Assembly: GCA_951406725.2 (NCBI GenBank)
Contig: OX597827.1
Span: 55,986,001 to 56,050,000, forward strand
Direction: 5' to 3'
DNA: 64,000 nt
Origin: Octopus vulgaris
Lineage: Eukaryota
In this document: piece by piece, positions 15,873 through 51,172 of the stretch
How positions within the stretch are numbered: position 1 is the first letter of the stretch
How the letters are laid out: the number at the start of each line of letters is the position of its first letter
Made by a program: the position numbers and the translations under genes
The notes under the pieces: generated by a model
Told to the model about the DNA's origin: nothing
Databases searched by the model: none
What the model saw: the letters and a program-made list of their open reading frames with translations, nothing else

Positions 15873-16464
15873 GGAAAGACTTCCGCCCGTACCCCCCCCC
15901 TACCATTTTCTCCCAAATTTGTTTCTCTTTGTAATTTTTTTTTTTTTTTCCAAAAATCCCCGTTTTCGGATACGGATGTTCCGGAAAATTGCCAAAAATC
16001 GGCATTGTGAAATTCCACCCCCTCTCCCCCCAACTTCTTCAATTTTGACTTTTTTTTCCCCCAACACTGACCCTAAAACCGTAAGTACAGAAATGTTTTG
16101 AAATTTTTGTCCGAATCATGATGTCCATATTTTTCCGCATATTTATAAAATTAAATTAATTTAACAATTAAGAAAATAAAAGGAAAGGCTAAAATTTAGG
16201 GTTAGGGTGAGGGTGAGGGTTAGAGTTAGTGACAGGATGTTGTCTCAGTTTTAGACGCAGCAAATGATTTTAGCTCACTCGAGGCGATTCATTGGTTAAA
16301 ATTCGAAAAATTAAACTACGTTAAACAAACAAATTACAATTTTCTCAAGAAAGCCAAGAGAAAAAAATGTTTTATTTTGACACATTCTACCAGTATACGA
16401 AGTTTTAAAGTGTTTAGTTTACTAGAAATTGTGTTGACATGTGCCGTTCAAAAGGAAAAGATCC
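15873..16464. mobile_element. Chimeric telomeric-repeat MITE (left arm of the 49725 family, right arm of the 50720 family)
   Basis: Starts GGAAAGACTTCC, ends AAAGGAAAAGATCC; internal TTAGGGTTAGGGTGAGGGTGAGGGTTAG. Confidence 0.7.
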
Positions 16465-16843
16465 TATATATATATATAAATATATATATATATATATATA
16501 TATATATATATATATATATATATATATATATATATATATATATATATATATATATATATATATGTATGTATGTATGTATGTATGGTGATGCAAAACAGGA
16601 AAATAGAACTCAAAATATGAGTATGTGTATATTTTTTTATTAATATTTAGCAGAAGCAACAAAGGCCGAGAGTTTAGTGCGGTCCTTGAGTCAATCTGTT
16701 GCTTCAGCTAAATATTAATAAAATGTGAGTGTGTGTGTGTCCGGCCATTTGAGTCTGACACGCTTTATAGGTGAGAAACGAATCGTCACTCTCTGACCAA
16801 CCATAACAGACAACCGTGCAATCTTTATTCTCGAAGCCATTTC

Positions 16844-16935
16844 GGCGGAGGTAAAGAATACGTACACCACCCGTTTTCGATGTAACAAAAACCCTAACCC
16901 ATAAACACTGGGTGTACGAATTCTCTCCTTTCGCC
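16844..16935. mobile_element. 92-bp GG-terminal MITE with a CCCTAA core
   Basis: TIRs GGCGGAGGTAAAGAATACGTACACC / GGTGTACGAATTCTCTCCTTTCGCC; perfect 8-bp TSD GCCATTTC. Confidence 0.9.
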
Positions 16936-17759
16936 GCCATTTCATTTGATTTGCAATGCCAATGAATAAACGTTAAGACTTTCGTCTCTAGAAATCTGAA
17001 GACATGCGTCTGTGTCGGCAATCAACAAACGATGTTTTTCTAAACCAAAAGATATCCTATTTCGTTTTCATGAGCTGGAGAGATTGTGTAAAGTCAACTG
17101 AATCAATCCCAGTACCCTTGTTGTACCTATTTACATAGTGTGAACAAGACTGGAACTTGGAAATGTGATACGGAAGTTTGCAATGATAACCAGAGCGTCT
17201 GACAAAATGACGTGCAGTATCAATTTACTACCTATTTATGATGTAAGTGTTCAAATCTCATCGAGGTCGACTTTACAAGTGTCAATAAAGCAAAACCAGT
17301 CGAGTGCTGAAGTTGATTTATATTCTACAAGGCATCCTAGATGTGAATGGAATTATAATAGGAGACAAGAAACAGACCGAACCAGAGAAAGTACAACATT
17401 CGTAACAGTACTTCACATGTAGATAATTTCTACTACTTTTGATTTTAATTAGAAACTGTATTAAAACCTACATTTACTTAAGCAAATGGCGAAAATAAAA
17501 TTTAAAAAAAAAAAAAAAAAAACTTACAGCGAGTATCGAAAGTTTGCGTGCCTTTAAAATTAGCTCAAAGTTCGGAAAGAGAAAAAAACGAACGCTTTGA
17601 TGTCATAACGCTATTGTTACATAATAGCGTTTCTTTTGGCTTTATGTTCTCAATTCAAATTTCGCCGAGGTCGACTCTGCCTTTCATCCAATTTCTTTAT
17701 TAGCCACAAGGGCCCAAACATAGAGGGGGACAATACAGCCTGATTGGGGGCAGACACAC

Positions 17760-19141
17760 AATGATTATATGACTTTTAAAATTTTACAAAATATAATGAA
17801 ATCGAATGAGATACAAGGACAAAATACAAACATGAAATGAAGCAGAGAGATGGGTTACGCTCCGACCCCACGAGACCCATTCTCCTACTGGAACCTTTGT
17901 ATACAACATGCAACCATCTTTCTTTGAACATTTTCTTTGACAGGCATCTTCTCTCCAACCTCACCTTCCCTTTAAGGTGGAAGATAAAAAATCTCACCAA
18001 CCCAAGACCGGAGATGAGGTTGCCTATCGCCAAACCTTTCATTCGCGACTTCCATACCACCTCTTTCGCCATTGCTACTACTGCGAGAAAACATTGCTTA
18101 CCTTCTTTCGTGAGGAAATCCGGCGGGTCAATTTTTACGATTGACTCAGACGACAGCTGGCTGTACTCTTCCCGAACCTGACAGCAGATGTTTTGCATAA
18201 GCCCACACTTCAGACACTCCCGGACACTGAACAATAGCGTGCAGGACGGTTTCCCTATCCTGCCCGCATCTTGGACAGTCGGCAGTGCTAGTTCAACCGT
18301 GTCGTACGAGCTTATCCCGAACGGGTAAGGCTCCTCGGTAACATTGCCAAGCCAGGGATTTTTGGAAATTATCCAAACACCCCGGCTCGAAAGTCCTTCG
18401 GAACAGACTATCTAACTGGTTATCTCCGAGACCTAGGGTCTCCCCTAGGGTATCGTCGTTCCCAGCCTCTACCAACCTGCTATAGAAAGATGTGGTGGTA
18501 CCAAAACCGCTGGCATTACCCGAGTGATGGAACTGTAGGAGTGCTTTACGGCACTTCGTAAACCATGTACCCAACCTCGATCTACGAAGGAACCAGCTTT
18601 CTTGTCCACTAAAACTAGTGAACCTGGGAAACATCCGTTTCGCGAGCGGTGACCACACTTGTTCACCATTCAGGAGTAGCCAGAGATGCCTCAGCCTCAG
18701 CGTATGTTTGCGCATCAACAGCCAAGACATCCCCAGTCCTCCATTCAACGACTTCTGGCAGCAGATAGAACGCCTCACAAGAGGAGTGGTGCCTTTCCAC
18801 AAAAAGCGGAAGATCTGCCTCTCCAACTTGCTCAACCACAAACCGGGACAGGGCACGACGGTTAGGCGGTAAATGATGACCGATGCGATAAACACATTGG
18901 CCACCTCCGCCCTCCCTTTCAAGGATAGCTACCGCCAAGACCAGGTCTTGACTATGCAGGTCACCTTGCTCGATACCTCTGCCCAGTTCTTTTCTACCTG
19001 GAGGTCTAGTCCAAACTAAACTCCTAGCAGCTTAACCGGGCCCTCCGTCCAACGTCCCACGACGCTATCCGAAGGTATCGACTTGCCCTTCCAGGTGCCG
19101 AGTTGCAAGCCGACTGACTTTTCCCGTTTAATCTTTGCCTT
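17760..19141 (-). mobile_element. Tx1/L1-clade LINE ORF2 C-terminal fragment (frameshifted)
   Basis: ORFs 18293-18922 and 17776-18234 contain FRFLWKG, GGLGM and ALPVRDKL plus a following Cys-rich region; AKIKREKS and KLLGV upstream. Confidence 0.8.
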
Positions 19142-48761: not shown

Positions 48762-49220
48762 TCTCTCTCTATATAAACGGTAGTTTGTCTGTCTGTGTGT
48801 CTGTTAGATTGTACCCTCACCCTGACCACGGCTTTCAACCGATTCTGATGAAACTTGACACACACACATAGCCCAATGTCATAATTCAAAACTAACGCAG
48901 CAAAAATTTTGAAAAGTTCCCCCAGTTTTGAAAAAATCGATAAATTCGACATGGGGTCGAGAATCTAAGCTTTTTATATGCAACACATTTTCTGGGCTGT
49001 ACGTGGGCTGTTCACACGTTGGGATGCGCAATGATGTTTTCATGTTTTCGCCCAAAGGGACAGCTAGGAACATCGTATACACAGACGTATTCGAGTGAAG
49101 AGAAGACATTGCAACCTACACATGCGCCTTCGTTCCCTAGAGGGAAAGGACTAGATTGGGATTAGTCGTTGCCTACTAGGGGCTCTTACATACCCGGGCA
49201 ACGCCGGGCTATGCTGCTAG
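48762..49220 (+). mobile_element. Non-autonomous Helitron
   Basis: A|TC start, hairpin CCCGGGCAACGCCGGG, CTAG|T end. Confidence 0.88.
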
Positions 49221-49724
49221 TCTTATATAATAATCTGCTTGTTCGTTCACTCGTCATACATTAGTTTGAGAGGTAAACGTGGAGTAAATGAGAGGTGGAA
49301 TAAGAGTGAGAGAGAGAGTGGGAGGCATGAAGAATGAAGAGAGGAAGGTGATTAATATTAATACACTTAGGCGAAATGGTCACGTGGTCAGCTGAAGGTA
49401 GAGGCGATGGATGAGAGGAAAAGGAAAGAGAGAAGTGTTAACGACGTGCAGTGGGATGGAGGAATATACTTATTACCTGGTTAAAAGTTAGCTGAAGGGA
49501 AAGGTAGAAAGAGAGATGGACAGGGGAGGCAGTTATATTGGGAGAGAGAGAGAGGCAGATAGCAGCAGTAGTGGTGGTGGTGATGCGTATTTTTTTAATG
49601 AATTCTTTTGCAGCGATTATCGCATACGTATAAGTGCAATTACTTATCGTCTGCTCGCTTAAAAAATTGATATTTGTTTATAAGGGTTAATTTAGCCTAA
49701 ACTTTGGATTCGCAAGAAACACCT

Positions 49725-50269
49725 GGCAAGACTTCTTATTGTACCCCACCCAAAAAACACCCCCTTTTTTTATATTTAATTTTATCTTTCTACGCAAATC
49801 CCCGTTTTCGGCTACGGAGAATACGAATCTGCAAAAAAAAGGAAAAAAAAAAAAAACAAAACAAGGCAAAAATCGGTATTTGGAAATTACCCTCCATCTC
49901 CTAATTTCTTCATTTTTAACTTTTTTCAGAAATTTTTTCAAAATACGCGGAAAAACACGGAGATTATGATTCTGAAAAAAAATTTCAAAAAATTTTTGTA
50001 GTTAGGGTTGGGGTTTTAGGGTTAGGGTTTTAGGGTTTGGGTTAGGGTTAGTGTTTTAGGGTTAGTGTTTTAGGATTAGGGTTAGGGTTAGGGAAAAAGT
50101 GAAAAAAAATGAAGAAATTGGGAGGGTGGGGTTAGGGTTAGGAGGGGCTGAAATTTCAAAATGCCGACTTTTGGCAATTTTCCGGAATCTCCGTATCCGA
50201 AAATGGGGGTTTTGAGGAAAAAAATAGTTGCGAGAAAATGGGGGTGGGGTGACGGGAGGAAGTCTTTCC
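49725..50269. mobile_element. Fold-back MITE family B with a long central TTAGGG array
   Basis: GGCAAGACTTC / GAAGTCTTTCC termini; TSD AAACACCT / AAATACCG (6 of 8); degenerate TTAGGG at ~50002-50093. Confidence 0.8.
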
Positions 50270-50719
50270 AAATACCGTTGCAAGCTGCCCGAGAAAAGTT
50301 GCGCAAATATGGAGCACAGGTCAGAGGGGAACGGCGAGAAAATAGAAATAGAGAACAATGACAACACCGACGGAGATGTGAGGAAATGAATGTAGACAAA
50401 GGTCAAGAATATTTAAAGAAAGCTAAACTATGAATGCTAAAGAAAATGCATATCATCCTTTCTTTCTAAATAAGTCCTCTTAATTTTTCTATTCCGTGGA
50501 TTCTACACGTCTCCTACTAGTTTTAATTATGCAAAACACCCAATGCTTATACGTATCCTTTATTCTTTTTATATACGTCGAAGTCTTATATATGGTTCCA
50601 GTCAATATAGGACAATAGCGGTGCTGATGATGGCTATCAAGACAGAAACGTGTTTACAACTGTCTGCTTACCTTAAGAAAAAAAAACCATTATGGCATCT
50701 TACTTCAGGAAAATTGTTG

Positions 50720-51172
50720 GGATCTTTTCCTTTTGAACGGCACTTTTCAACACAATTTCTAGTTAACTAAACACTTTTAAACTTCGTATACTGGTAGAAT
50801 GTGTCAAAATAAAACATTTCTTTTCTCTTGGCTTTCTTGAGAAAATCGTAATTTGTTTGTTTAACGTAGTTTAAATTTTCGAATTTTAACCAATCCAATG
50901 CCCTCTATTTAGCTAAGGTCATTTGCTGCGTCTAAAACAGACATCCTGTCACTAACCCTAATCCTCACCCTAACCCTAAATTTTAGCCTTTCGTTTTTTT
51001 TTCTTAATTGTTAAATTAAACTACGTTAAACTTACAAATTACAATTTTCTCAAGAAAGCCAAGAGAAAAAAATGTTTTATTTTGACACATTCTACCAGTA
51101 TACGACGAAGTTTAAAAGTGTTTAGTTAACTAGAAATTGTGTTGAAAACTTCCATTCAAAAGGAAAAGATCC
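50720..51172. mobile_element. GGATC fold-back MITE (family A2) with a CCCTAA core
   Basis: TIRs GGATCTTTTCCTTTTGAA; TSD AATTGTTG / AATCGTTG (7 of 8). Confidence 0.9.

What the first reader, a model, noticed from the sequence alone, without database searches (positions are those of the whole stretch)
15873..51172. Several GG-terminal, 8-bp-TSD MITE families carry internal telomeric TTAGGG repeats
Seen: about 11 elements (15873, 16844, 19142, 23081, 24251 fragment, 25897, 37931, 41122, 48318, 49725, 50720) with three dissimilar TIR types (GGATCTTT, GGCGRA, GG(A/C)AAGAC). All complete copies contain TTAGGG/CCCTAA runs, often at the centre of the fold-back. TSDs are 8 bp where visible (GCCATTTC, AGCAAACC, AAT(T/C)GTTG). 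Known: GG termini with 8-9-bp TSDs fit Merlin (or Mutator-like) elements. Inference: the telomeric seed is either functional (telomere-protein binding or G-quadruplex) or a scar from telomerase-healed breaks during MITE formation. Either way these elements spread interstitial telomeric sites.
Basis: partly seen in the sequence, partly recalled or inferred. Interest (0 to 1): 0.7.

Follow-up and report, generated by a model that had tools for sequence, protein, structure and literature searches.

The report
Mini-transposons trading a telomere-repeat cargo
Small gene-less jumping elements, likely of the Merlin type, carry short runs of this animal's own telomere repeat and hold about nine in ten of the short internal telomere-like sites sampled; one family likely took its run from another that had jumped into it, and the runs look like passive cargo, probably first written by telomerase at a DNA break.

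Summary
The elements are real. They are GG...CC non-autonomous DNA transposons with 8-9-bp target duplications, and TTAGGG is this genome's telomere repeat.

Corrections: 15873 is a one-off C/A2 chimera. 37931 sits between two ~244-bp direct repeats, not a short TSD. The three TIR types form two lineages (A; B/C).

Merlin link: C's arms are 67-73% identical to arms flanking decayed IS1595-type transposases, and a run-bearing D copy shares its TIR with such an element. No partner for A was found.

Of 81 (TTAGGG)2 loci on contig C1, 73 lie in these elements; 8 are isolated, 3 shown as junction inserts.

Subfamily A3 (window 41122) got its array from a nested C element: 28 of 30 copies retain C's end inside A's termini. 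Runs decay neutrally, and run-free relatives also transposed, so the run is cargo, not a required part.

Of 125 A copies, 8 have 29-244-bp flanking duplications and 13 have none, fitting aberrant two-chromatid transposition.

This scan already noted these families and long duplications elsewhere in this genome; the nesting route, transposase links and counts were not in the notes shown to me.

The parts
15873..16178 (-). Family C fragment (short arm with C terminus, decayed run at about 16071, part of long arm); left part of a one-off chimera, junction about 16150-16180
16149..16464 (-). Right half of an A2 element with run 16196-16207 plus variant units; no TSD
16844..16935 (+). Family B MITE, 92 bp, perfect 8-bp TSD, one perfect and one decayed hexamer in the hairpin loop
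19142..19565 (-). A1 MITE, run 19249-19260; no TSD; left flank is a LINE cut flush at the TIR (three homologues continue past that point)
23081..23171 (-). Family B MITE, TSD 6/8, one perfect hexamer in the loop
24251..24393 (-). A1 long-arm fragment without run
25897..25993 (-). Family B MITE with (TTAGGG)3 at 25928-25945; TSD decayed or absent
37687..37930 (+). Left copy of a 244-bp flanking duplication, ending flush at the TIR
37931..38369 (+). A1 MITE, run 38241-38268
38370..38612 (+). Right copy of the duplication, starting flush at the TIR, 93% identical to the left copy
41122..41545 (+). A3 element, array-only form (array 41402-41453); the array is inferred to be the remnant of a nested family C element; right end lost at a TA tract
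48318..48698 (+). A1 MITE with perfect 8-bp TSD; run shortened by a deletion to one hexamer
49725..50269 (+). Family C MITE, unequal inverted arms (about 253 and 175 bp in the consensus) around a 6/8/14-bp mixed array from 50002; TSD 6/8
50720..51172 (+). A2 fold-back MITE, about 160-bp arms, run 50956-50979 in the loop, TSD 7/8

Best explanation
These are non-autonomous cut-and-paste transposons, likely mobilised by Merlin transposases, that carry short telomere-repeat runs as likely passive cargo, probably first written by telomerase into a break in one or a few founder copies and then passed between families, likely by nested insertion and trimming.

Shown: GG termini and 8-9-bp TSDs; thousands of copies; runs in most copies examined; a C terminus, arm and array sitting inside A3 termini in a graded deletion series; neutral decay of the runs; run-free relatives that transposed; isolated telomeric inserts elsewhere in the genome.

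Inferred: telomerase as the writer; Merlin as the mover of A and B; a similar B-to-H hand-over; slippage as the cause of the 1-28-unit length variation.

Side feature: a minority of A copies sit between long duplications or next to flush one-sided losses, most likely from transposition that uses ends on two chromatids (hybrid element insertion).
For: TTAGGG is telomeric here: 58 CCCTAA units in the first 400 bases of contig C22, 1 of 20 contig ends examined.

Abundance: 12,065 exact hits to A's 24-bp TIR, control 0; 16,900 run starts against 75 for the reversed pattern.

TSDs. A, 125 complete copies: 96 with 8 bp, 3 with 9, 3 with 7, 2 weak, 8 long, 13 none. B, 36 copies: 14 with 8 bp, 9 with 9. 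C, 24 copies: 13 with 8 bp, 1 with 9.

Merlin link: C arms are 67-73% identical over about 190-210 bases to arms of elements flanking PF12762 hits. Those elements have no run, and the homology ends at C position 253, where the array begins. D-type TIRs enclose PF12762 hits at L395 and L396, and the run-bearing copy L189 has a D terminus.

Nesting: of 30 loci found with an A3 internal probe, 28 have C's terminus abutting it, and 19 show A3 left arm, array and C end in order. Shorter forms keep only 20-30 bases of C, or the array alone.

Neutral decay: 3.2% vs 3.1% in B (29 copies, p=0.87); 3.7% vs 3.1% in A1 (39 copies, p=0.50).

Run-free copies with TSDs: 4 of 125 A; 0 of 8 D copies in the de novo survey had a run.

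Isolated inserts: L167 (15 bases between a 9-bp duplication in a LINE), L175 and L184, each against homologues that lack the run.
Against: No transposase-bearing element with A, B or C terminal sequence was found. About 85 of the 150 listed PF12762 places were examined (476 candidates), plus 30 of 66 MULE places at only 1.5 kb of flank.

No empty A3 and no A3 with a whole nested C was among the 30 loci, so the insertion step is inferred from its remnants.

Runs occur in many contexts (A1, A2, A3, B, C, D, G, H, I), and in A3 the array outlived both C arms. Passive carriage does not predict this; an element-level advantage would.

The mixed 6/8/14-bp arrays are not what telomerase writes directly and need later slippage.

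The origin of the A1 and A2 runs is unresolved.

A telomerase gene was not found (the search was uninformative because its control rang nowhere).
Confidence: 0.6

Rival explanations
1. The run is selected at the element level: a host telomere-binding protein, or telomerase itself, helps excision, gap repair or escape from silencing, so run-bearing variants out-amplify the rest and keep the run when all else is trimmed.
For: Runs occur in at least nine subfamily contexts of several TIR types. 39 of 39 TIR-chosen A1 copies carry at least one hexamer, 37 carry two or more. In A3 the array survived loss of C's left arm and then most of its right arm. The 8-bp-TSD hAT-like MITE at window 20556-20762 has none.
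Against: Position and orientation relative to the ends vary. B has two units and no four-G-tract motif. Run-free A, D, E, F and B2 elements transposed. Neutral decay after insertion excludes host-level selection on the copies, but not element-level selection.
Confidence: 0.22
2. Each family gained its run independently when its fold-back centre broke and telomerase filled the gap (centre-break repair).
For: Runs sit between unequal arms or in the loop in B, C, A2 and I. Isolated fillers make up 8 of 81 loci against about 0.4 expected per 100 matches by chance.
Against: A3's array is a captured piece of C. H's run follows a B-like TIR. G and A1 share about 48 run-adjacent bases at 83-88%. Independent origins are therefore at most a handful.
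Confidence: 0.12
3. The run is an ordinary microsatellite born by slippage from G-rich arm sequence and matches the telomere repeat by chance.
For: A1's run abuts a G-tract, unit number varies 1-7 among A1 copies, and Merlin families often hold tandem repeats (PMC8101967, passage and S1 Table part 1).
Against: The reversed hexamer pattern is 225-fold rarer genome-wide. Of some 350 hexamer classes, this is exactly the telomeric one. One-step inserts of it are seen elsewhere.
Confidence: 0.06

Closest known systems
Merlin superfamily (IS1016/IS1595-related) and its non-autonomous derivatives; PMC8101967, passages and S1 Table part 1
   Same: 5'-GG termini, 8-9-bp TSDs, TIRs from about 24 bp to long arms, internal tandem repeats proposed to spread by transposition; DDE_Tnp_IS1595 remnants inside related arms.
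   Different: The cargo is the host telomere repeat, and it moved between TIR families by nesting. The paper's main text has no hit for 'telomer' and its table gives periods, not units; Merlin-1_Aplcal has a period-6 array of unknown sequence. Long flanking duplications are not in the passages read.
Short interstitial telomeric sequences of vertebrates; PMC8537989, passages
   Same: Short exact runs inserted in one step at repair junctions, with small deletions or additions; this matches the isolated inserts L167, L175 and L184.
   Different: For TERC-ITSs that paper found no role of transposons in dissemination. Here about 90% of sampled sites are inside transposons.
Alternative transposition: P-element hybrid element insertion and Ac reversed-ends transposition; PMC3744419, passages
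   Same: An element end lies exactly at the junction of a direct duplication, with reciprocal deletions.
   Different: Duplications here are 29-244 bp, not 8 kb or more as in the induced maize cases. They flank a single MITE, and 3 of 8 are 69-71 bp.
IS1549/IS1634-type long variable target duplications (name taken from scan note e1-9828531; no paper on them read)
   Same: Variable, long duplications flush with both ends.
   Different: Bacterial. Here 8 bp is the clear mode and long ones are 6% of copies.

Membership tests
Merlin | Terminal 5'-GG | tested here: met
   A, B and C copies
Merlin | 8- or 9-bp TSD | tested here: met
   99 of 125 A, 23 of 36 B, 14 of 24 C
Merlin | TIRs of 24-462 bp | tested here: met
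   A 27-30 bp up to about 160 bp; B about 25 bp; C a short terminal match plus about 120 bp of imperfect arm
Merlin | Partner with DDE_Tnp_IS1595 transposase sharing the terminal sequence (families A, B, C) | tested here: inconclusive
   None in about 85 of 150 listed places; C shares sub-terminal arms only, 67-73%
Merlin | Partner with DDE_Tnp_IS1595 transposase sharing the terminal sequence (family D, outside the window) | tested here: met
   L395 and L396 enclose PF12762 hits over the cut-off
Mutator-like (MULE) | Modal TSD of 9 bp or more (recalled) | tested here: not met
   A: 96 with 8 bp against 3 with 9 bp; B is mixed, 14 against 9
Mutator-like (MULE) | MULE transposase flanked by these TIRs | tested here: inconclusive
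   None in 30 of 66 places, only 1.5 kb of flank seen
Zisupton/KDZ | KDZ transposase in the genome | tested here: inconclusive
   0 matches, but the control rang nowhere
hAT | Termini CAG or TAG (recalled) | tested here: not met
   All start GG; a CAG-ended 8-bp-TSD MITE at 20556 serves as contrast
Short interstitial telomeric sequence | One-step insertion against an empty site | tested here: inconclusive
   Met for 3 of the 5 isolated sites tested; not testable for the MITE founders, whose true parents were not found
Hybrid element insertion / alternative transposition | Duplication flush with the element end | tested here: met
   8 of 125; at L151 four homologous repeats hold the 71-bp segment once
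Hybrid element insertion / alternative transposition | Reciprocal flush deletions | tested here: inconclusive
   13 of 125 lack a TSD; 4 of 6 inspected have a repeat flank cut at the TIR; no deletion length could be measured
Hybrid element insertion / alternative transposition | Exchange of flanking markers | not testable with these tools
   Needs empty alleles or crosses

The most novel reading that the evidence does not exclude
Merlin mini-elements in this animal exploit the telomere machinery: telomerase routinely fills transposase-made breaks in the germ line (L167 would be an excision footprint with telomeric filler between both 9-bp target copies), and elements that carry or steal a telomere run amplify better, so the run travels between unrelated transposon families as a selfish module.
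Probability: 0.17. Interest if true: 0.8.

Novelty: new variant of a known kind. Interest (0 to 1): 0.45.

Why it matters
In this genome most short internal telomere-like sites are transposon cargo, not relics of chromosome fusion or individual repair events, so internal TTAGGG signal should not be read as fusion history without masking these elements. The A3 series is a clear example of a repeat module handed from one transposon family to another. The long flanking duplications suggest that a very abundant MITE family makes small tandem duplications and deletions. No host function is shown.

Tried and rejected
Search for an autonomous partner of A: Merlin places, MULE places (33, 35) and KDZ (13) gave none. 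The 3.36-kb A element at L142 was a MITE with a nested fold-back and no transposase-like ORF. The main intact Merlin family here (TIR beginning GGCAC, 8-bp TSD) shares no TIR with A, B or C and has no array.

Telomerase RBD search: uninformative.

Deletion sizes at no-TSD copies: could not be measured, because no copy had both flanks in one repeat.

Rows set aside: the 'long' call for B copy L110 (79 bp, offset 24, microsatellite flank), judged spurious; the 12-bp call at L142 (AT-rich).

Pfam found no family for the Penelope-like and LINE ORFs.

Literature searches: no paper held all terms for Merlin + TTAGGG or Merlin + Aplysia + telomeric. The listings showed nothing on telomere-repeat MITEs by title or abstract start. 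This library lacks most subscription papers and Repbase, so absence from print is not shown. PMC9071541 and PMC9977147 passages added nothing on this point. Nergadze 2004 was not held. Part 2 of the S1 Table and two alignment supplements of PMC8101967 were not read.
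Full report
Setting. The window is G000:C14:55986001-56050000 of a 2.8-Gb assembly in 227 contigs. Earlier scan notes call the animal an octopus; I did not test that. TTAGGG is its telomere repeat: one of 20 contig ends examined, the start of C22, holds 58 CCCTAA units in 400 bases.

Observation. All eleven places hold GG-started elements. They cover 3,681 bases and contain 34 of the window's 50 telomeric hexamers, 9.2 per kb against 0.27 per kb outside. 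The quoted TSDs are correct. But 15873 is a C fragment fused to half an A2 element, a junction seen in no other fetched locus. 24251 is a run-free fragment, 41122 lacks its right end, 19142 has no TSD, and 37931 lies between two copies of a 244-bp segment. Folding puts the run in the loop for B, C and A2; in A1 it lies about 100 bases from one end.

Abundance and share of internal telomeric sites. A's 24-bp TIR has 12,065 exact matches, control 0. Run starts of the form H-TTAGGG-TTAGGG number 16,900, against 75 for the reversed pattern. I classified the first 100 matches on C1 (0-45.4 Mb; 81 loci): 72 adjoin A, B, C or D sequence by BLAST, one more is a B element by eye, and 8 are isolated. 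The pattern misses runs preceded by G and covers one region only. The elements cluster: 31 stretches of 10 kb chosen without regard to them held one copy, against 11 in 35 kb here.

TSDs and run content (many loci were chosen by similarity or by the run itself). A: 125 complete copies, 96 with 8 bp (at least 7 of 8 matching), 3 with 9, 3 with 7, 2 weak, 8 long, 13 none; 121 carry a hexamer. B: 36 copies, 14 with 8 bp, 9 with 9, 33 with a hexamer. C: 24 copies, 13 with 8 bp, 1 with 9, all with two or more hexamers. In the subset chosen by TIR and then filtered to A1 structure, 39 of 39 copies carry 1-7 units.

Which transposase. The genome has at least 150 PF12762 places. Several lie in GG-ended elements with 8-bp TSDs whose TIRs differ from A, B and C and which lack arrays. 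Two families, E and F, have long arms around decayed PF12762 sequence; the arms are 67-73% identical to C positions about 46-253. The match stops at position 253, where C's array begins, and C's other arm, resuming at 345, matches the same Merlin arms. A B-like TIR continues into such arms, which ties B to C. D-type TIRs directly enclose PF12762 hits at L395 (9-bp TSD) and L396, and one D copy, L189, carries runs. For A no partner was found in about 85 Merlin places and 30 MULE places; KDZ gave no match with an uninformative control. Merlin's definition (GG, 8-9-bp TSD, TIRs of 24-462 bp, internal tandem repeats) is from passages of PMC8101967. Merlin is therefore direct for D, indirect for C and B, and by ends and TSD only for A.

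How the run moves. The window's 41122 belongs to subfamily A3. Longer A3 copies read: A terminus and arm, mixed array, the whole right arm of C including C's own terminus, A3 internal sequence, A terminus. A search with the A3 internal piece returned 40 places, 30 fetched: 28 have C's terminus abutting, 19 show A3 left arm, array and C end in order, and several are bounded by A termini with 8-bp TSDs. Other copies keep a shortened C arm, 20-30 bases of it, or the array alone, as in the window. C's arm is the inverted copy of its other arm and resembles Merlin arms, so the direction is C into A3. No empty A3 and no wholly nested C was found, so the insertion itself is inferred. Family H (another GG, 8-bp-TSD element) holds a B-like TIR followed by a run, and G shares about 48 run-adjacent bases with A1; both are weaker cases. 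A further D-like family, I, has central runs in three copies.

Function or cargo. Substitution rates in the run equal those of other non-CpG sites: 11/348 vs 56/1827 in B and 17/462 vs 468/14886 in A1. Run-free A copies (4 of 125) and D copies (none of 8 TSD-flanked copies had a run) kept their TSDs. A four-G-tract motif is present in 90 of 125 A, 12 of 24 C and 0 of 36 B. The run is therefore not required and not conserved in place. An advantage during amplification is not excluded, and the survival of the array in A3 after both C arms were trimmed is the best argument for it.

Where the run came from. Isolated telomeric inserts exist. At L167, 15 bases lie between two copies of a 9-bp LINE segment, absent from three homologues. 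At L175 there is a 16-base insert in a SINE, absent from the homologues shown. At L184 a SINE ends in a run. L171 and L177 had no usable homologues. These match vertebrate short interstitial telomeric sequences as described in passages of PMC8537989, whose authors saw no role of transposons in spreading TERC-ITSs. I infer one or a few such events in founder elements, then slippage. Telomerase itself was not located.

Long flanking duplications. Prompted by note e1-9828531, I tested the flanks. Eight A copies sit flush between direct repeats of 29, 45, 69, 70, 71, 118, 155 and 244 bp, 91-96% identical. At L151 four homologous repeats carry the segment once. Among no-TSD copies, 4 of 6 inspected, including window 19142, have one flank that is a repeat cut at the TIR while homologues continue. 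Duplications with reciprocal deletions at an element end are the products described for P and Ac alternative transposition (PMC3744419, passages). No credible long case was seen in 36 B or 24 C copies.

Verdict. Real, abundant, Merlin-like MITEs carrying the host telomere repeat as cargo and accounting for most short internal telomere-like sites sampled. This is a variant of a known kind. The scan has noted these families before in this genome; the nesting route, transposase links, neutral-decay test and frequencies were not in the notes shown to me. Interest 0.45.

Noticed in passing
window 56857-60454: 1,385-bp arms, 100% complementary, around an 828-bp spacer; a 396-aa ORF at 57933-59123 (-) looks Penelope-like by eye (RT end plus GIY-YIG-like motifs), no Pfam hit. 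Further similar fragments at 61337-61702 and 63117-63530.
   Followed up: partly
window 24244-24408: The A1 fragment at 24251 is bracketed by a 15-bp inverted repeat built partly from its own terminus, suggesting a template switch.
   Followed up: no
window 20556-20762: hAT-like MITE (CAG termini, perfect 8-bp TSD) without a telomeric run; used as a contrast.
   Followed up: yes
window 29239-29739 (-) and 31410-31955 (+): Fragments matching PF21530 (Pif1 2B, likely a Helitron remnant) and PF17906 (mariner HTH).
   Followed up: no
window 17776-19031 (-): Decayed LINE coding region cut off flush at the A1 element at 19142.
   Followed up: partly
L167:1490-1525: A 15-base telomeric insert between two copies of a 9-bp LINE segment; it could be an excision footprint filled by telomerase.
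   Followed up: partly
L249:2790-2960: Head-to-head CCCTAA and TTAGGG arrays around a 35-bp spacer, bounded by inverted pieces of a SINE motif.
   Followed up: no
L423:900-2350 and L142:2584-5577: Heavy nesting: C elements inside C and B2 arms; a 3-kb D-like fold-back with a 9-bp TSD inside an A1 copy.
   Followed up: partly
L145, L024, L151: Three of eight long flanking duplications are 69-71 bp.
   Followed up: no
PMC8101967 S1 Table: Merlin-1_Aplcal of another mollusc has a period-6 array of 39.5 copies; the unit is not given.
   Followed up: no
G000:C1 against the whole genome: A TIRs occur at about 1.1 per Mb on the first 88 Mb of C1 against 4.3 per Mb genome-wide; the elements cluster strongly.
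   Followed up: partly
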